NCBI GenBank assembly: GCA_951406725.2
Contig: OX597826.1
Coordinates: 64,790,001-64,854,000 of the forward strand
Length of the DNA stretch: 64,000 bases
Source: Octopus vulgaris
Lineage: Eukaryota
Direction: 5' to 3'
In this document: piece by piece, positions 17,017 to 55,215 of the stretch
Layout of the letters: each line of letters begins with the position of its first letter
Position numbering within the stretch: position 1 is the first letter of the stretch
Made by a program: the position numbers and the translations under genes
The notes under the pieces: generated by a model
Seen by the model: the letters and a program-made list of their open reading frames with translations, nothing else
The model's database searches: none
What the model was told of the DNA's origin: nothing

Positions 17017-17302
17017 GATGATACCATATAGGAGCATGATGTGTTGACATATGATACAGTGTTTTTGTTAGTTATTGTCGTATGTTGACGTGATGGTGGT
17101 GGTGTCATCATGGTATTGATGATACCATATAGGAGCATGATGTGCTGACATATGATACAGTGTTTTTGTTAGTTATTGTCGTATGTTGACGTGATAGTGG
17201 TGGTGTCATCATGGTATTGATGATACCATATAGGAGCATGATGTGCTGACATATGATACAGTGTTTTTGTTAGTTATTGTCGTATGTTGACGTGATAGTG
17301 GT
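17017..17302. repeat. Tandem repeat, ~101-bp unit x ~2.8
   Basis: gatgataccatataggagcatgatgtg recurs at ~17017, 17118 and 17219. Confidence 0.92.
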
Positions 17303-17593
17303 CGTGGGGTATCACGACCTGGTTGTGATCATGCCACTGGTGCCAAGCTGTATCGTCCTTTCCCTTTCCCTTGGCTAACATCGGTGGCGTGTAGAGGGGA
17401 GGCTGGTATGCATGGGAGACTGCTGGTCTTCCATAAGTAACCTTACCCGGCCTTGTACCTCGGAGGGGAACTTTCTCGGTGCAATCCTGAGGTCGATTTG
17501 CTCGACTAAAGGTGGTGCTCCAGCATGGCCACAGTCAAATGGCTGAAACAAGTAAAAGATTATTAGTGGTTTTGTGATGATGTTACATTGGTA

Positions 17594-19021
17594 TGGAAAG
17601 AGTGTTTGAAAGAGTGTTAAGATCAAGGATAGCTGACTTCCTGGAGACCCACAAACTCCTAAATGCAAATCAGCATGGCTTTCGCTGTAGCAGGGACTGT
17701 CTAACACAGCTCTTACACCACATTGAAGATATACTCAAAGCCTTGGGAACAGGTTCGAACTCTGATGTCATATATCTTGACTTCAGTAAAGCGTTCGACA
17801 TAGTTGACCATAATATCCTACTCTCAAAATTGGCAAATGTTGGAATCCGTGGAAAACTTCTACACTGGATTAAGTATTTCCTGGCGAATAGAACACATGT
17901 TGCAGTTGATGGAGTCCACTCAAGCCCAGCAAAAGTCACCAGCGGTGTCCCCCAGGGGACTGTCTTGGGCCCGCTACTCTTTATAATTTACATAAACGAC
18001 CTTTCCAGTGTCGTAGATTACTGCAAAGTGAAAATATTTGCTGATGACACTAAGCTCCAGCAAATCATTAATGAAGAAGCAGACCGAACTCAACTCCAGT
18101 CTGATCTATATGCTGTGAGTCAATGGGCAGACAGAAACAAAATGCAACTGAACGAGGAAAAATTTGAGCTGATGCATTTTGGAAGAAATTCCTCACTAAA
18201 ACAGCCATACACTCTTCCTTCAGGGGAACCGCTCACAGCCTCTAACAATATCAGAGACCTGGGTGTAATTGTTGATGACGATCTCAGTTGGAGTGCACAC
18301 ATCAGCAATAAGGTCGATATAGCTCGTAGGATGAGTTCCTAGATCTTAAGAACGTTCTGGTCCAGAGAACAAGGTGTCATCATACCACTTTTTTCCTCCT
18401 TTGTACGGCCACACCTCGAATACTGCTGCCCACTGTGGTCTCCCCATACAAGACAAAACATCTCGAGGATTGAATCACCCCAGAGGGCACTCACTAAACG
18501 AATTGAAGGCATGGTTGCTCTCGATTATTGAGACCGCCTTAAAGCTTTGAAACTCTACTCTCTCCAGCGTCGCCGTGAGCGGTACATCATTTGTACGATG
18601 TGGAGAATATACCGCCAACTTTGCCCAAACAACCTGAACATTAGCTTCAAGGTTCATCCAAGACTGGGACCACGGGCCATACGTCCCCTGCCCAATTCAA
18701 GATCACAGCATACATGTACACTGCAACATAATTTCTTTTCCTAAACAGGCCCTGCCCTATTTAACATTGTCTCGAAAGAGATCAAAGAGGAAAAGGATCC
18801 CATCAACTTTAAACGGAGTCTGGATAGATTCCTTCAAGGAATACCAGATAAGCCACCCATAATTGGATACAACTCACCCAACAAAAACTCACTACTTGAA
18901 TGGACCATAAACAAAACTTGACTTAAACAGGATTTAGATAATCCTATCAGGTGGTGCTATTAAGTTAGACATGGCCTGGACCAATCTTTGGTCGAAACAT
19001 ATCTAAGTTCTATCTAAGTTT
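17594..19021 (+). mobile_element. 5'-truncated CR1/L2-group LINE: RT domain, C-terminus, 3' UTR and tail; contains stops
   Basis: QHGFR, IYLDFSKAFD, SGVPQGTVLGPLLFIIYINDL, FADDTK, RDLGVIVD, VRPHLEYCCPLWSP, LYSLQRRRER; ends tatctaagttctatctaagtt. Confidence 0.95.
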
Positions 19022-20832: not shown

Positions 20833-21308
20833 ACATACACAGACATACGAAAGATTGCCAAAGATAAAAAGTTACAGAAATAAAAGTTACACGAATAAAG
20901 TAAGGAATAAAAATCACAAAAAATATACGAAAATTTACAAAAACTAAGTTAGTTATATAATATATAAGTTTAATATATAAGTTAGTTAATAATATATTTA
21001 AAAAATGTGAATAGAAACTGAAGGAATACGGTAACCGGGTGTTTACATTTCACGTATGTTAAATACGTCAGCAAAATAGCCGTTTACGTCTATCGAGACG
21101 GAGTAAATAATATGAAGCCGAAAGACCGAATACCATTGGTTAAAATTCTAATTATTAAACAACGTTAAACTTTGAAATTACAATTCCGTTTTCATTCTGG
21201 TTTACAATTATGTTTTCTTTTGACACATTCTACCAGTATACGAAGTTTCAAATTGTTTGGTTAAGTAGGAAAAATCTGAAAAAACAGGCCTTGGAAATGA
21301 AAAGATCC
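20143..21308. mobile_element. Non-autonomous DNA transposon with ~105-bp TIRs, Merlin-like
   Basis: TIR GGATCTTTTCATTTCCAAGGCCTG...; exact 8-bp TSD aaaatatg (20135-20142 and 21309-21316); 5'-GG ends plus 8-bp TSD fit Merlin/IS1016. Confidence 0.8.
20635..20803. mobile_element. MITE with ~48-bp TIRs, TA-flanked (Tc1/mariner-like), nested in the Merlin-like element
   Basis: ta|TGGCCGATTCAGTGTTT..GAAAGATTACC ... GGTAATCTTTC..CACTGAATCGGCCA|ta. Confidence 0.8.
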
Positions 21309-21479
21309 AAAATATGTATCACTCAGTCTTGAGTAAGGTTTGGGTGAATTTGGTTTCCAAATATTGCGAATTCAAACATCGACACACTTCCCATGCCCCC
21401 CCCACCCACAACTATAGAAATCAACAACATTTTAGAAGACACTATAAATTATTCAATTATAACAATAACTATGCAGGGC

Positions 21480-22175
21480 AGAATAGGAACAACTCGGGGA
21501 GGAGATGGGAAATTATATGGTTCACACGCCATTTTCCCCTCCAGGTCAGAAACCTCCTTAAATTATTTTCTTGCATTATCGGTAGGAACTTCCAACTACG
21601 TCATAAATATCATTCAATATTTAACAGATCCTGCCTTAAATCATCTTACTCAACCACACCCAATCTAGGATCTATAATCGCGGTCAACAATATAATTAAA
21701 CTTAGAAATAACAACACTAATAGTGATGATAACTTAGCTGACCTTAATATGAAGAATAATAAGAAACCTGATATTAAAAACAGAAAGGCTAAACCTGGAA
21801 ATAAAACAAGTAAAATATGTAATTGACGTAATAGGGAGCTTTATCCCCTAAAAGGTTTCAGTTTAAGGAGAGATATATAAAGTTGAAGTCTCAACCCTTA
21901 ATGAACCTAAAAAGATTTACATAGGTAGTACGACTGATTTTAAGATTATATATAGGGCGCATACAAACTCACTTACTAACCACGAAACAAAAAGCTTCAA
22001 CCACAAAAGAATTCAGTCTAGATTGGTCTATAATAACGGAAACCACACCATATAATACACACGAAAAATTGCAATTTATGCACGAAGGAGGCGATCCACA
22101 TACTCCGCGCCAACGAAAATAACTTACTTAATAAGATAGCTGATGTCATAACTACCTGTAGATATAAATATCTTT
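21480..22175 (+). pseudogene. Penelope-like element remnant: linker and GIY-YIG endonuclease, frameshifted
   Basis: IIWF...HKYHSIFNRSCLKSSYSTTPNLGSII, then CN*R..PL.G, IYKVEVSTLNEPKKIYIGSTTDFK, WSII..TPYN, CNLCTKEAIHIL..NLLNK..CR. Confidence 0.8.
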
Positions 22176-24194: not shown

Positions 24195-24616
24195 AAGGCG
24201 GCGAGCTGGCAGAATCGTTAGCACGCCAGGCGAAATGCTGAGGGGTATTTCGTCTGCCACTACGTTCTGAGTTCAAATTCCACCGAGGTCGACTTTGCCT
24301 CTCATCCTTTCGGGGTCGATAAATTAAGTACCAGTTATGCACTGGGGTCGATGTAATCTACTTAATCCGTTTGTCTGTCCTTGTTTGTCCTCTCTGTGTT
24401 TAGCCTCCTTGTGGGTAGTAAAGAAATAGGTATTTCGTCTGCTGCATCGTTCTGAGTTCAAATTCCACCGAGGTCGACTTTGCCTCTCATCCTTTCGGGG
24501 TCGATAAATTAAGTACCAGTTATGCACTGGGGTCGATATAATCGACTTACTCCGTTTGTCTCTCCTTGTTTGTCCTCTCTGTGTTTAGCCCCCTAGTGGG
24601 TAGTAAAAAAATAGGT
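24195..24616 (+). mobile_element. SINE family B dimer
   Basis: Second unit restarts at ggtatttcgtctg (~24429). Confidence 0.88.
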
Positions 24617-25216
24617 ATATTTGAGGCTGATTAGAGAGAGAGAGAGAAATGTCTGAACGGTGATATTTCGAATTAGGCTTCTTGTTCCTTAAGTATTTGA
24701 CAATAATATCACTATGACCAGTTTTCAAGATACCAGATGAAATGTCAAGTAGTAAAATCGGGTGCTTTATAAACTAAGTCAACTAATTTTGCTTCATGCT
24801 CTTTTTTTCTCTTAATTCTAATGCTAAACGTGTGTGTGTTTTGCTGTTGTTTCTTTTATTTGTTTTCTGATAACAGCCGTACATTTCGTGTCCTACTGTT
24901 CAAGCCTTGCTCACTGTAATCAGTGGTTAGTCATCTTCACTCATATAAAAGACATGTTCGACTTTGAATAAGATTGTTTCCGTGAGGAATAAGGGGTGGG
25001 TGTAGATTAAAGTTAAAAACGTTATTTTGTCATAACTTCAATGACAAACATTCAACAAGTTTTTTGTATAAATAAACTGCTTCTGCTTTTGTGCATATTG
25101 TAGTTGTTGTTGTTGTTGTTGTTGTCTTAACAATTGCTGTTCTTGTTGTTGTAGCAGTCTTTTATCTTTTTTTCTTTTTTGTTCTGAGTCATCTCTTTGT
25201 TAAGATGTAAAGTACT

Positions 25217-33275: not shown

Positions 33276-34067
33276 AAGGCGGCGAGCTGGCAGAATCGTT
33301 AGCACGCCGGGCGAAATGCTTAGCGGTATTTCGTCTGCCGATACGTTCTGAGTTCAAATTCCGCTGAGGTCAACTTTGCTTTTCACCTTTTCGGGGTCGA
33401 TTAAATAAGTACCAGTTACGCACTGGGGTCGATATAATCGACTTAATCCGTTTGTCTATCGTTGTTTGTCCTCTCTGTGTTTAGCCCCTTGTGGGTAGTC
33501 AAGAAATAGGTATTTCGTCTGCCGCTATGTTCTGAGTTCAAATTCCGCCAAGTTCGGCTTTACCTTTCATCCTTCCGGTGTCGATAAATTAAGTACCAGT
33601 TACGAAATGGGGTCGATATAATTGACTTAATCCGTTTGTCTGTCCTTGTTTGCCCTCTCTGTGTTTAGCCCCGTGAGTAGTAAAGAAATAGGCATTTTGT
33701 CTACCGCTACGTTCTCAGTTCAAATTCCGCCGAGGTCGACTTTGCCTTTCATATTTTCGGGGTCGATAAATTAAGTACCAGTTACGCACTGGGGGTCGAT
33801 GTAATCGACTTAATCCGTTTATCTGTCCTTGTTTGTCCTCTCTGTGTTTAGCCCCTTGTCGGTAGTAAAGAAATAGGTATTTCGTCTGCCGCTATGTTCT
33901 GAGTTCAAATTCCGCCGAGGTCGACTTTGCCTTTAATCCTTTCGGGGTCGATAAATTGAGTACCAATTACGCACTGGGGTCGATGTAATCGACTTAATCC
34001 GTTTGTTTGTCCTTGTTTGTCCTCTCTGTGTTTAGCCCCTTGTGGGTAGTAAAAAAATAAGAGAAAT
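33276..34067 (+). mobile_element. SINE family B tetramer (~185-bp units)
   Basis: One head, then restarts at ~33509, ~33691 and ~33876. Confidence 0.9.
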
Positions 34068-34750: not shown

Positions 34751-34990
34751 TTATATATTAAAATGGGAGAGGCCGGTTTATGGGGTTACCCCATTTTAAT
34801 ATTAACTGCTCTACATCTTAGAGTGTGCTTCTCCGAATTTATGTATTTCTACAAACGACATGTATGTATGTATATCTATACATATATCTACAAACACACA
34901 CACACACATTAAACACATACATGCATACATATGTACATTGACACGTATGGATGAATGCGCATATGTGTGAATGTCTATATGTAAGCATAC

Positions 34991-35023
<33 letters not shown>

Positions 35024-35044
35024 TGTATGTATGTATGTATGTAT

Positions 35045-35708
35045 AAAGGATTCAAGGATGCCAAAACAACTCTTTTATGGAGAGTTAGCCAAAGGAGAAC
35101 GACCTCCACATAAACCAAAAAAGAGGTATAAGGACTTGCTGAAGGCTTCCTTAAGAGATGCTTGCATCTCTCCTGACACATGGGAAGGCATAGCTATTGA
35201 TCGTAGTAGGTGGAAAAGGATTGTGCATGAGGGGACAGCCACGTTTGAGAAATCTCGAGTTGCACATGAGAAAGTAAGGAGGGATGTCAGGAAGGGCATC
35301 GCTGTTACACTTCCAGAAGGGAAGGGTCTTCCGATGATGCTGACATGCAATGTCTGTGCAAGACCCTGCCTCAGTAAAGCTAGACTCATGAGTCATCTTC
35401 GTAGTCATAAAACGAGACAGATGAGTGACAACCTGGCCACTGGTGGTGGTGTAACACACCATACTAATCATATCTGTCGGGCATGTGGAAGAGAGTGTAA
35501 TTCGGCAGGAGGACTTAAACGACATGCAAAGGTACATGAAGCCCAGTTACAACTACAGCCGGCTATTACCAGTAAAGGTTTTAGTTGCTAATTTTGTACA
35601 AGACATTGTAGATCTTAAGCTGGGCTACAAAGTCACATTCAATCAGAGCACCAGTAACAGTTAGGCTTCGCGCAATGGCCATACTCGATAACGAGGGGGC
35701 AGCCACAA
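35045..35708 (+). mobile_element. RTE-group LINE 3' fragment with C-terminal C2H2 fingers, inside (TATG)n
   Basis: RMPKQLFYGEL..G.R....PKKRYKD.LK...WE..A.DRS.W (RTE C-terminus); CNVC..LMSHLRSH and CRAC..GLKRHAKVH. Confidence 0.85.
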
Positions 35709-38560: not shown

Positions 38561-38619
<59 letters not shown>

Positions 38620-38621
<2 letters not shown>

Positions 38622-38966
38622 GGAGATGTACTCGCATAGCAAGTGATTTGATCTGAGATCGTGTGCTGGAACGAAAATAATTGCAGCGTGGAAGGTGTTT
38701 GTAAGCCATTTAAGAAACACACAAAAGCCGTTCGATTCACTTCAACATTTAAGTTTTAATTTGTCAAAATATTTTCGTCGCTAAAATCCGCGACCTGTTC
38801 ACTGACAAAAATCCGAGATGCAGCACGGATTTTTGTCAGTGAACAGGTCGCGGATTTTAGCGACGAAAATATTTTGACAAATTAAAACTTAAATGTTGAA
38901 GTGAATCGAACGGCTTTTGTGTGTTTCTTAAATGGCTTACAAGCACCTTCCACGCTGCAATTATTT
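38620..38966. mobile_element. Fold-back element (292-bp inverted repeat 38675-38966, 10-nt loop) between (TA)n tracts
   Basis: Arms essentially identical (one mismatch seen); ~55-bp unique left extension. Confidence 0.88.
38832..38881 (+). ncRNA. Hammerhead-like motif with G3-C8 core
   Basis: tttgtca-GTGAACA-g-GTCGC ggatttta GCGAC-GAA-aatatt-T-tgacaaa; mirror copy at 38760-38809 minus. Confidence 0.65.
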
Positions 38967-39013
38967 ATATATATATTTATATATATATTTACATACATAC
39001 ATACATATATACA

Positions 39014-39047
<34 letters not shown>

Positions 39048-39692
39048 CATATACACACACACATATATTGCTCTTTCTCTCTGAATGCCTACTCGTGCAG
39101 TTCATCGTGTTACAAATATGCATCAAAACTGTTTCTATAAGCTGTTCCCGGTTCAAATAACCATCCTATGCGACCGACTATCGTTCTATCCCAGGGGAAA
39201 AATTAAATCTAAACTGTTTCACTAACACACCTTTGAAAAACGGGTTTAATTCGATTGCAGTTTCAACTGATGGTTATAAGTTGGATGAAAATATGAATAA
39301 AACAGACGGGTAGGTGTTTATAGGAGTGGACTGAATTCAGTTGCAGTATGTTTTCTAAATCCAAATATTTGGGAGGAAATCTAATATACTAAGCATTAGA
39401 ACCCACACATTGAGGGCTTTTATTATATTCTTTATTCTTTATTTTTTATTTTATCTTATTTATTTATGTATTCTGTATATTTCTTTTCTCATTAGATTCA
39501 TTTCATGTACCAAATACAGGGGTCGCCAAGAGAAATGTTGCAAGGTGGAGCACGACTGTTTCCTAGTCCCGTGGGCTTTCAAAATTCGTAAGCTGTGACT
39601 TTTTCTTTTTCTTTCTTTAGGGAGTGGTGGTCCCGTTAGATATTCATAGGCCCTTTCGTGGCTCTCCAGCACCCAGATGTACAGACTGAACA

Positions 39693-53369: not shown

Positions 53370-55215
53370 TTTGACTGGGACGTTGTCAGGGAGCCCCCGA
53401 TCTCCCTCATCTAGAGTGTATATCTAAATGTTGTTCCCTAAGATATCAGTCATCTTATTTGTGCTAGTCATGGAGATATTACTAAGATCTATCACAAAGA
53501 CACCAATTAAGAGTTTTTTATGGACGACGTTACTGTATTATCAGAAAGTAGAGAAGCAGCAGATGGAACATTAGAGCGGTTGGACGAACTAGTAGGATGG
53601 ACGAGAATGAAATTCAAAGCCAAAAAATCTCGAAGCGTGGCTTTCGTGAAAGGAGTCCAAAAAAGAAGTGAAATTCAGGATAGGAGGTGAAGATGTACCA
53701 ACAGTGAAAGAACAACCAGTAAAGAGTCTCGACAGATGGTACAGAGATTTACTAAATGATAAGAAGCAAAGCAAAGAAACACACGATTTAGTGGAACAGG
53801 GGCTAAAGGCAATTGACAGAACAACATTACCGGGGAAATTCAAATGTTGGATACTGCAAATTGGACTGTACTCGAGGATAATGTGGCCATTGCAAATGTA
53901 CGAAAAAGCCCTGAGTAGAGCAGAAAAGATGGAACAAAGATGCAGTGTGTTTATCAGAAAATGGTTTGGTCACCTAAAACCACTGAATACAACTGCACTA
54001 TATGGAAAACCCGTGCTGCAACTACCGATAACATCAATTGCCGAAGAATATAAGGCAGGAAAGGCAAGGACAGTAATGATGCTAAGGTATTCGAAAAATA
54101 AGAACATCCGAGAAAACCCTCCAAAGGTACGAACAGGGAGGAAATGGAATGCGGAAGAGGCAGTAAACAGGGCGATCGGAAAGCTAAGGCACGCCGACAT
54201 AGTCGGAGCGGCGCAAGAAGCAAGAGCTGGTCTAGGGTTGCACAATTTCAAGCCATTTTGCAAGAGCAGTATAAACGAGATGAAAGAGGCAGTGGTACAT
54301 GAAGTGAGAAAGGAGGAAGAAGAAAGGCGAAATGTACATTTGGTGCAATGTAGTCAACAGGGACAGTGCCTAAGATGGGAGGAATATGTGGTCAGTCGCA
54401 GAATCTCATGGAAGGAACTTTGGGCTTGGCAACAAGCAAGAACATCCTTCTTGGTCAAGTCTACCTTCGATGTTTTACCTTCACCAGCGAATTTAGTCCG
54501 CTGGAACATACAAACAACTGATGAATGTAGATGCGGAGAGAAAGCGACGGTGAGACATGTTCTGTCAAACTGCAGGCTAGCACTAGACATATATACATGG
54601 CGTCACAATCAAGTCCTCGGTGTCATAAGCGCAGCGCTCAAGAAGATCGAGGGATATAATAGGGGAGAGCACCCAAAAATGGAAAAGCGCGGAAGGATAT
54701 ACTTCCAGAAGGAGGGAAAAGGACATAAAGCCAGGCCTTCAAATAAGGTACAAGAGACAGACGAAAGATGGAAGGGATACTGGGAGCTGGCCACGGATTT
54801 GGAAAGACTGTTAATATTTCCATTCATAAAAACAACAAAAAGACCGAACTTAATCCTATGGAACACAGAACGGAAAATTGGAATTTTGCTCGAGCTGACA
54901 CTGCCATGAGAAGAGAACATCACTAATGCAAAGCAACGGAAGGAGAAGAGGTATGAGAGATTAATCGAAGAGTGCGGAGAACAGAGATGGACTGTCGAGT
55001 ATTACTACCTGACAATGGGAGCTAGAGGCTTCACTGAAAGGAAAATGGCGACGTTATTTAAAAGAAGGTTTGCATTTTCGAGCTCAGAGCTGAGAAAAGT
55101 AATAAGGAGGATACAGGGGGAAGTCGACAAAGCCAGTTTCTATATATGGCTAAAAAGAGAAGACTCAAAATGGCTCGAAAGCCATAACATGCCGACTGGG
55201 AAATACCGTCGCTAG
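53370..55215 (+). mobile_element. 5'-truncated RLE-type non-LTR retrotransposon (HERO-like): RT C-half, zinc knuckle and restriction-like endonuclease
   Basis: FMDDVTV, WTRMKFKAKKSRS, EQPVKSL.RWY, LPGKFKCW, YKAGKAR, DVLPSPANL.RW, C.C..HVLSNC, YTWRHNQVL, RPNL..LELTLP*EE, GARGF; frameshift and stop. Confidence 0.92.

What the first reader, a model, noticed from the sequence alone, without database searches (positions are those of the whole stretch)
38760..38881. Candidate natural G3-C8 hammerhead core variant with UUU cleavage triplet
Seen: a 7-bp stem I (tttgtca/tgacaaa), core GUGAACA instead of CUGANGA, one extra G, a 5-bp stem II GTCGC/GCGAC, GAA, palindromic AATATT, then U17. Established: positions 3 and 8 form a Watson-Crick pair in the active hammerhead fold, and a G3/C8 swap partly rescues activity in vitro. 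An extra base after A9 is tolerated in some natural hammerheads. Inference: the double compensatory change implies selection on the fold, and standard CUGANGA searches would miss this family.
Basis: partly seen in the sequence, partly recalled or inferred. Interest (0 to 1): 0.82.

Follow-up and report, generated by a model that had tools for sequence, protein, structure and literature searches.

The report
Swapped-core hammerhead in octopus retroelement
The end repeat of a very abundant jumping gene (a Penelope-like retroelement, probably of an octopus) carries a hammerhead self-cutting-RNA motif in which two paired core letters have traded places (C3-G8 to G3-C8) across thousands of copies, while sister elements keep the usual pair or a third one, which suggests the fold is under selection, although cutting itself is untested.

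Summary
Window 38832-38881 reads stem I, GUGAACA, an extra G, a 5-bp stem II, GAA, AAUAUU, U17, stem I. An exact mirror lies on the minus strand (38760-38809), because the locus is a 146-bp head-to-head hairpin.

The motif is the minimal hammerhead of the terminal repeat (pLTR) of a Penelope-like retroelement. About 6,000 arms match in the genome, and a full-length copy (pLTR, RT plus GIY-YIG ORF, pLTR) has the motif in both repeats.

G3-C8 is the family state: 71 of 80 insertions picked independently of the core. An older related family keeps it while position 7, loop II, helix III length and one stem I pair change. Sister families in the same genome carry C3-G8 or U3-A8. I found natural U3-A8 in print but not natural G3-C8; one key paper was unavailable.

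Cleavage is untested. Copy 5' ends do not pile up at the predicted cut, and this hairpin copy cannot fold the motif in a read-through transcript. Verdict: a real new variant of a known kind, likely a weak, dimer- or protein-assisted ribozyme.

The parts
38832..38881 (+). Minimal type I hammerhead motif with G3-C8 core (G3 38839, C8 38844, extra G 38846, G12 38865, U17 38874; predicted cut 38874/38875)
   Evidence: sequence; fold; descriptor scan
38760..38809 (-). Mirror copy of the same hammerhead motif (G3 at 38802)
38816..38962 (+). Right arm: whole pLTR of the Penelope-like element, from the usual 5' boundary AGATG to the first common 3' end, without tail
   Evidence: alignment to family copies and to full-length element L217
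38622..38815 (-). Left arm: inverted pLTR lacking its first 10 bases, plus the roughly 60-base tail that ends at the second common 3' end
38622..38709 (-). Stub of the element's ORF (start codon about 58 bases after the predicted cut); in L217 this frame runs on into the RT and GIY-YIG protein
38564..38621 (.). (TA)n microsatellite left of the insertion (target)
38963..39051 (.). TA/TACA microsatellite right of the insertion

Best explanation
This is the minimal hammerhead motif in the terminal repeat of a Penelope-like retroelement; the 3-8 core pair is reversed to G3-C8 throughout the family, and the motif likely still acts as a weak self-cutting RNA that would need a partner copy or the element's protein. 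Shown: the anatomy, the carrier element, the family state, and the covariation among sister families. Inferred: the element's RNA starts about 22 bases upstream of G3. Stems I and II fold. Two motifs (the 5' and 3' pLTR of one tandem transcript, or two RNAs) pair through the AAUAUU palindrome to make helix III. G3-C8 holds the 2'-OH of position 8 at the U17/U1.1 bond. Cutting is probably slow or late, because new copies are mostly made from uncut RNA, with reverse transcription starting at two sites inside the ORF. The window copy is a short head-to-head product of that process and is likely inert in read-through transcripts.
For: Carrier: L217 has pLTR, ORF, 3' region and pLTR plus tail, with GUGAACA in both repeats. 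The near-intact ORF in L414 scores GIY-YIG above the Pfam cut-off (25.4 against 22.6 bits), shows RT motifs by eye and is followed by the same motif. In 30 long-form loci the ORF lies upstream on the same strand in 26, and 21 also have GUGAACA downstream. Family state: 98 of 109 arms and 71 of 80 insertions are G3-C8 in loci picked by a downstream pattern. Older family B keeps G3-C8 (27 of 29 loci) while N7 becomes C/U, loop II changes, the helix III palindrome shortens to AAUU and stem I pair 6 is mostly G-C instead of U-A. Sister families: C3-G8 in C (15 of 27, the rest mostly one transition away) and D (28 of 30); U3-A8 in E (5 loci). Metagenome relatives of the ORF (L316, L318) have C3-G8 motifs behind it. 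In a 17-row alignment, pair 3-8 and stem II are 99% paired and 0 of 500 shuffles reach the covariation score (related rows inflate this). Literature: the C3G/G8C double mutant partly restores cutting in a lizard Penelope hammerhead, which cuts only with the element's protein and is not needed for insertion (PMC11167929).
Against: No cleavage data. 5' ends of 150 arms show no peak at the cut (6 within 3 bases, 3.8 expected). The predicted domain-swapped dimer is barely more stable than two monomers (-27.2 against -26.6 kcal/mol). A and B may share one origin of the swap: the branch that separates them from C is weak and the bootstrap had not settled. Family B was found with a pattern that asked for G3 and C8 and allowed one mismatch. 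The young, intact sister family D has C instead of the conserved A9, so core constraint in this clade may be loose. Position 8 departs in 8 of 118 arms against about 2% at other non-CpG C columns.
Confidence: 0.65

Rival explanations
1. The hammerhead fold is kept as a non-cutting structure, for example a binding site for the element's protein or a translation-control element just upstream of the start codon. The 3-8 pair is kept for shape only.
For: No 5'-end peak at the cut site. Sister family D is young and has many intact ORFs despite A9C. In the lizard element, hammerhead mutants did not affect insertion in vitro (PMC11167929).
Against: U4, G5, A6, A9, G12, A13, A14, A15.1, U16.1 and a non-G at 17 are the majority state in family A. 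The helix III palindrome survives a two-base length change between A and B. That the 3-8 pair belongs to the active conformation is established knowledge (recalled; PMC3884650 passages).
Confidence: 0.2
2. The ribozyme is a relic. Two substitutions were fixed by chance in one master lineage and were then amplified with it.
For: One origin is enough for A and B. The test on young subfamilies is not significant. Single changes at 3 and 8 occur in copies, as decay predicts.
Against: Three different Watson-Crick states at 3-8 occur across related families, and I found no family with a mismatch there. G3-C8 persists from old family B (median end branch of the tree 0.33 changes per column) to young family A while neighbouring free positions change.
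Confidence: 0.08
3. The changes were driven by an overlapping signal. G3 and C8 each create a CAG that resembles a splice acceptor, and G3 creates TCAGT, which resembles an arthropod initiator (recalled). The pairing would be incidental or compensatory.
For: Sequence. In Drosophila virilis Penelope the intron ends at the start of helix I (PMC4209133) and the promoter is internal (PMC2377424 passages).
Against: No set of copies begins at either CAG with a shared upstream exon. 5' ends cluster about 22 bases upstream, at AGATG (48 of 150 arms within TSS-3 to TSS+4). No joint or listed loose end falls at these sites in four runs, but these are contigs only and the tables were cut.
Confidence: 0.07

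Closest known systems
Minimal type I hammerheads (min-HHR) in pLTRs of metazoan Penelope-like elements (Cervera and de la Pena 2014, PMC4209133)
   Same: Position in both pLTRs; extra base between A9 and G10.1; G10.1-C11.1 pair; palindromic helix III; U17; mostly solitary or inverted short copies; a U3-A8 variant known from Schistosoma.
   Different: The core pair is G3-C8. None of the 56 representatives in their Fig. S3 begins with G3. The extra base is G, which is rare there.
Engineered C3G/G8C double mutant of the Poseidon hammerhead of Anolis carolinensis (Frangieh et al. 2024, PMC11167929)
   Same: The same base swap in the same kind of ribozyme; two internal reverse-transcription start sites in the ORF that give the optional tail; uncut RNA as template.
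   Different: Here the swap is natural and family-wide, the motif lies wholly upstream of the start codon, and activity is untested.
Natural hammerhead core variants (Perreault et al. 2011, PMC3088659)
   Same: Natural covariation at 3-8.
   Different: Sections 8 and 9 name only U3-A8; figures and supplements not seen.
C-terminal EN+ Penelope-like elements of the Neptune and Nematis clades (Craig et al. 2021, PMC8557442)
   Same: Single ORF with RT then GIY-YIG; cysteines between the GIY and YIG parts and a CX3CxxC linker; (TA)n targets; inverted 5'-truncated partner; optional tail.
   Different: The stretch between RT motifs A and B is long (about 130 residues, by eye). The sub-clade was not determined because no reference set was at hand.

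Membership tests
Hammerhead ribozyme (minimal type I) | Literal core CUGANGA ... GAA ... UH | tested here: not met
   Core is GUGAACA; no Rfam match at gathering score
Hammerhead ribozyme (minimal type I) | Watson-Crick pair between positions 3 and 8 | tested here: met
   G3-C8 in 71 of 80 insertions; C-G and U-A in sister families
Hammerhead ribozyme (minimal type I) | Remaining core U4 G5 A6 A9 G12 A13 A14 A15.1 U16.1 H17 | tested here: met
   Each is the majority letter in at least 94% of covering arms
Hammerhead ribozyme (minimal type I) | Helices I and II form, with G10.1-C11.1 | tested here: met
   Predicted pair probabilities 0.6-1.0 in a transcript that starts at the pLTR; compensatory changes at II.4 and I.6 between families
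Hammerhead ribozyme (minimal type I) | Palindromic helix III that allows a dimer | tested here: inconclusive
   The palindrome is kept (AAUAUU in A, mostly AAUU in B), but the predicted dimer gains only 0.6 kcal/mol
Hammerhead ribozyme (minimal type I) | Self-cleavage 3' of H17 | not testable with these tools
   No raw RNA reads were offered; genomic 5' ends show no peak there
Penelope-like element, C-terminal EN+ | Single ORF with RT followed by GIY-YIG endonuclease | tested here: met
   GIY-YIG above cut-off in L414. RT motifs by eye; Pfam RVT_1 not hit in this ORF and only weakly, below cut-off, in relative P0089
Penelope-like element, C-terminal EN+ | pLTRs flanking the ORF, optional tail, inverted truncated partner | tested here: met
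   L217; 3' ends in two clusters, 66 and 81 of 150 arms; 30 of 100 insertions have arms on both strands
Neptune or Nematis clade | CX2-5CxxC linker and CCHH motif | tested here: met
   Seen by eye in the L414 translation, against the text of PMC8557442
Neptune or Nematis clade | Placement in an RT phylogeny with reference elements | not tested
Non-LTR retrozyme | Head-to-tail tandem units without an ORF | tested here: not met
   The window copy is head-to-head and the family has an ORF-bearing partner; one short tandem array seen in L080

The most novel reading that the evidence does not exclude
An active natural G3-C8 hammerhead, fixed in thousands of copies of an animal retroelement, within one Penelope clade that has tried all three Watson-Crick forms of the core pair plus an A9C form. 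The clade would be a natural series in which retroelements tune their ribozyme down so that enough uncut RNA survives to be copied, and standard searches undercount such motifs.
Probability: 0.35. Interest if true: 0.65.

Novelty: new variant of a known kind. Interest (0 to 1): 0.47.

Why it matters
The role of hammerheads in Penelope-like elements is open (PMC8557442 and PMC11167929 both say so). A family-wide compensatory swap at a tertiary core pair is the kind of evidence that the active fold is selected. Families A, B, C, D and E give ready-made natural constructs to compare rates. It also means that descriptors fixed on CUGANGA or UUGANAA miss whole families, so reports that some elements lack hammerheads could be re-checked with a free 3-8 pair.

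Tried and rejected
1. First candidate partner ORF (L060/L093, a different Penelope-type ORF directly upstream of a long copy) was rejected. All 29 other copies of that ORF that I read continue differently, so this is a chance insertion.
2. The idea that the stems arise from the long hairpin was rejected: they fold within one arm.
3. The window pair as a cis dimer was rejected. The copies are on opposite strands, and in a read-through transcript both stems have probability 0.
4. An apparent excess of G at position 8 was rejected. The first 100 of 270 non-C8 arms show T 44, G 38, A 18 and no C3-G8 revertant (hand count), close to the background at other C columns (T 16, G 10, A 5).
5. Expression: no RNA holder listed and only contigs offered. 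Laying four runs showed that contigs of three further organism codes cover the repeat, but contigs cannot show ends.
6. Rfam found nothing. A PDB sequence search gave one weak RT hit.
7. The first pair count had stem II one column off and was redone.
8. Non-independent rows: 8 loci carry one hairpin insertion spread inside another repeat and were merged; L080 holds a tandem array; mirror arms were counted once per insertion.
9. Literature searches for a natural G3-C8 hammerhead found only engineered examples. Lunse et al. 2017 on Penelope hammerhead variants is not held and may bear on novelty. Supplement file 1 of PMC4209133 could not be searched, part 3 of its file 2 was not read, and the supplements of PMC3088659 and PMC8557442 were not opened.

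Full report
Observation. Both are arms of a 146-nt inverted repeat, 98% complementary, set in TA microsatellites. Stems I and II fold within the right arm alone (-15.4 kcal/mol, z -3.4). A descriptor with free positions 3 and 8 finds only these two copies in the window. It finds 0.17 hits per shuffled window when relaxed and none at the observed stem lengths in 60 shuffles. Rfam finds nothing at gathering score.

The carrier. The arm is a dispersed repeat. A pattern across the core with 3, 7 and 8 left free has 6,052 exact matches in the genome and the reversed control has 0; 90 of the first 100 listed are G3-C8 (hand count). A pattern downstream of the motif has 6,415 matches. These count arms, not insertions, and are lower bounds. 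Copies tend to begin at AGATG about 22 bases upstream of G3 (48 of 150 arms within a few bases). They end at one of two sites about 55 bases apart (66 and 81 of 150). Several show target-site duplications (by eye), and 30 of 100 insertions have arms on both strands.

A longer form has 262 matches. In 30 such loci an RT and GIY-YIG ORF lies upstream on the same strand in 26, is inverted in 1 and absent in 3; 21 have both the ORF and GUGAACA, and some of these loci are two arms of one insertion. L217 is a full-length element: pLTR, an ORF of about 1,060 codons with one stop and two frameshifts, a 3' region, then pLTR plus tail, with GUGAACA in both repeats. The frame that starts in the pLTR is homologous to the N-terminus of a database relative (E 5e-14). 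L414 holds a 1,025-codon open frame with GIY-YIG above the Pfam cut-off and the same motif behind it. This is the layout of a C-terminal-endonuclease Penelope-like element (PMC8557442: abstract, passages and section 12). The two 3' ends match the two internal reverse-transcription start sites described for the Anolis element (PMC11167929, parts 1-2 of 4); that link is my inference. The closest protein is labelled Octopus vulgaris and a stretch of it matches this genome at 100%, so the host is probably an octopus.

Is G3-C8 the family state? In 120 loci fetched by downstream patterns that ignore the core (30 of 266 matches, and 90 loci covering most of the first 100 places), 98 of 109 arms that cover both positions are G3-C8. 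Counting one arm per insertion, and merging eight copies spread inside another repeat, gives 71 of 80. The rest are scattered changes. Among the first 100 of 270 arms without C8 there is no C3-G8 revertant, and the spectrum resembles background. Position 8 departs more often than other non-CpG C columns (8 of 118 against about 2%), which I cannot explain.

Covariation. Family B is older: 70 matches with up to one mismatch, 2 of them family A. It keeps G3-C8 in 27 of 29 loci while N7 becomes C or U, loop II changes, the helix III palindrome is mostly AAUU, and stem I pair 6 is mostly G-C rather than U-A. The pattern asked for G3 and C8, so this shows that the family exists, not how pure it is. 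Family C has the same stem flanks and C3-G8 (15 of 27 loci; most others one transition away; found with a pattern that excluded G3 and C8). One C-type motif lies upstream of a homologous ORF start (L429). Family D, whose ORF is 62% identical over the RT region and has many intact frames, has C3-G8 but C at position 9 in 28 of 30 loci. Family E has U3-A8 in five ORF-linked loci, and one locus with the same flanks has C3-G8. Of 9 metagenome loci with a related ORF, two have a clear C3-G8 motif behind it, one a doubtful one, and none has G3-C8. In a 17-row alignment of A, B and C, pair 3-8 and stem II are 99% paired and exceed all 500 shuffles, though the rows are related. A tree of the stretch downstream of the motif (68 rows; rows under 70 bases left out) makes A one young clade (99/93), leaves B unresolved and old, and groups 21 of 23 C rows (92/86). 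The split of A plus B from C is weak and the bootstrap had not settled. One origin of the swap is enough to explain the data. Among young subfamilies, 0 of 11 core columns vary against 18 of 162 overall, which is not significant.

How it likely works. Shown: anatomy, position, family state, covariation. Inferred: transcription from the start of the pLTR lets stems I and II form (probabilities 0.6-1.0), and two motifs pair through AAUAUU to complete helix III, as proposed for minimal hammerheads (PMC4209133, parts 1-2 of 4). The reversed pair should keep the geometry: the engineered C3G/G8C double mutant partly rescues a Penelope hammerhead (PMC11167929; also review passages in PMC8495972). The predicted dimer gains only 0.6 kcal/mol, so help from protein is likely, as in the Anolis element. 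Cutting does not define the copies: only 6 of 150 arms begin within 3 bases of the cut, against 3.8 expected. The window copy is likely inert when read through, since the long hairpin then excludes both stems, and its two motifs lie on opposite strands.

Rivals. A non-cutting structural role fits the lack of cut-site ends and the A9C family (0.2). A neutral relic fits a single origin but not three different Watson-Crick states (0.08). An overlapping splice or initiation signal fits the two new CAGs but has no support from copy junctions (0.07).

Novelty. Natural U3-A8 is published (PMC3088659 sections 8-9; PMC4209133). None of the 56 representatives in Fig. S3 of PMC4209133 has G3, while UUU and the extra base do occur there. 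Nine searches found G3-C8 only as an engineered mutant. Lunse et al. 2017 could not be read. The 2026 retrozyme preprint (10.64898/2026.07.22.740005, parts 1-2 of 5) used canonical and minimal descriptors on 31 vertebrates and 4 other animals. PMC6765202, PMC3884650, PMC2377424 and PMC11300833 were seen as passages only. Earlier unchecked notes of this scan report G3-C8 in a few phage hammerheads, so the swap may not be unique in nature. What is new here is its fixation in a high-copy animal retroelement beside C3-G8, U3-A8 and A9C sisters. Verdict: real, a new variant of a known kind, interest 0.47.

Noticed in passing
L354-L382 (about 0.8 kb behind the ORF match): Sister family D, young and with many intact ORFs of about 1,310 codons, has core CUGAUGC (A9 replaced by C) in 28 of 30 loci; an older relative (L407) has A9. 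A second unusual natural core variant.
   Followed up: partly
L408, L413, L420, L421, L426 (upstream of the ORF start): Sister family E with a U3-A8 core; L423 has the same flanks and C3-G8.
   Followed up: partly
L136, L262, L263, L266-L268, L284, L301: One hairpin insertion with identical junctions and shared flanks, spread inside a larger repeat of unknown kind.
   Followed up: partly
L080: Head-to-tail array of at least seven pLTR copies on one strand, a retrozyme-like arrangement where cis dimers could form.
   Followed up: no
L217:5200-5222 and other long-form copies: The sequence just before the usual 5' boundary looks like an intron end (branch-point-like motif, pyrimidine run, AG). 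G precedes AGATG in 11 of 20 short copies where the element has C or T, which may be a copied cap or target microhomology.
   Followed up: partly
L414 translation: The stretch between RT motifs A and B is about 130 residues, long for a C-terminal-endonuclease Penelope element; the clade may be atypical.
   Followed up: no
L098, L094-L122: A different Penelope-type family with many intact 784-codon ORFs; my descriptor found no hammerhead of its own within 1.5 kb behind the ORF.
   Followed up: partly
window 24244-24618 and 33325-34059: Tandem arrays of a 184-185 base unit, a common repeat of this genome (also in L080).
   Followed up: no
window 17017-17306: 101-base unit repeated 2.9 times at 98% identity, just upstream of a LINE-type RT fragment (17581-18342).
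   Followed up: no
window 21269-21826, 34971-35591, 53650-54909: Open frames that look like retroelement fragments by eye: a possible Penelope-type thumb region, a LINE C-terminus with zinc fingers, and a LINE C-terminus with a restriction-like endonuclease.
   Followed up: no
L222:3342-7370: A 1,343-codon LTR-retrotransposon-like ORF lies between two pieces of the Penelope-like element.
   Followed up: no
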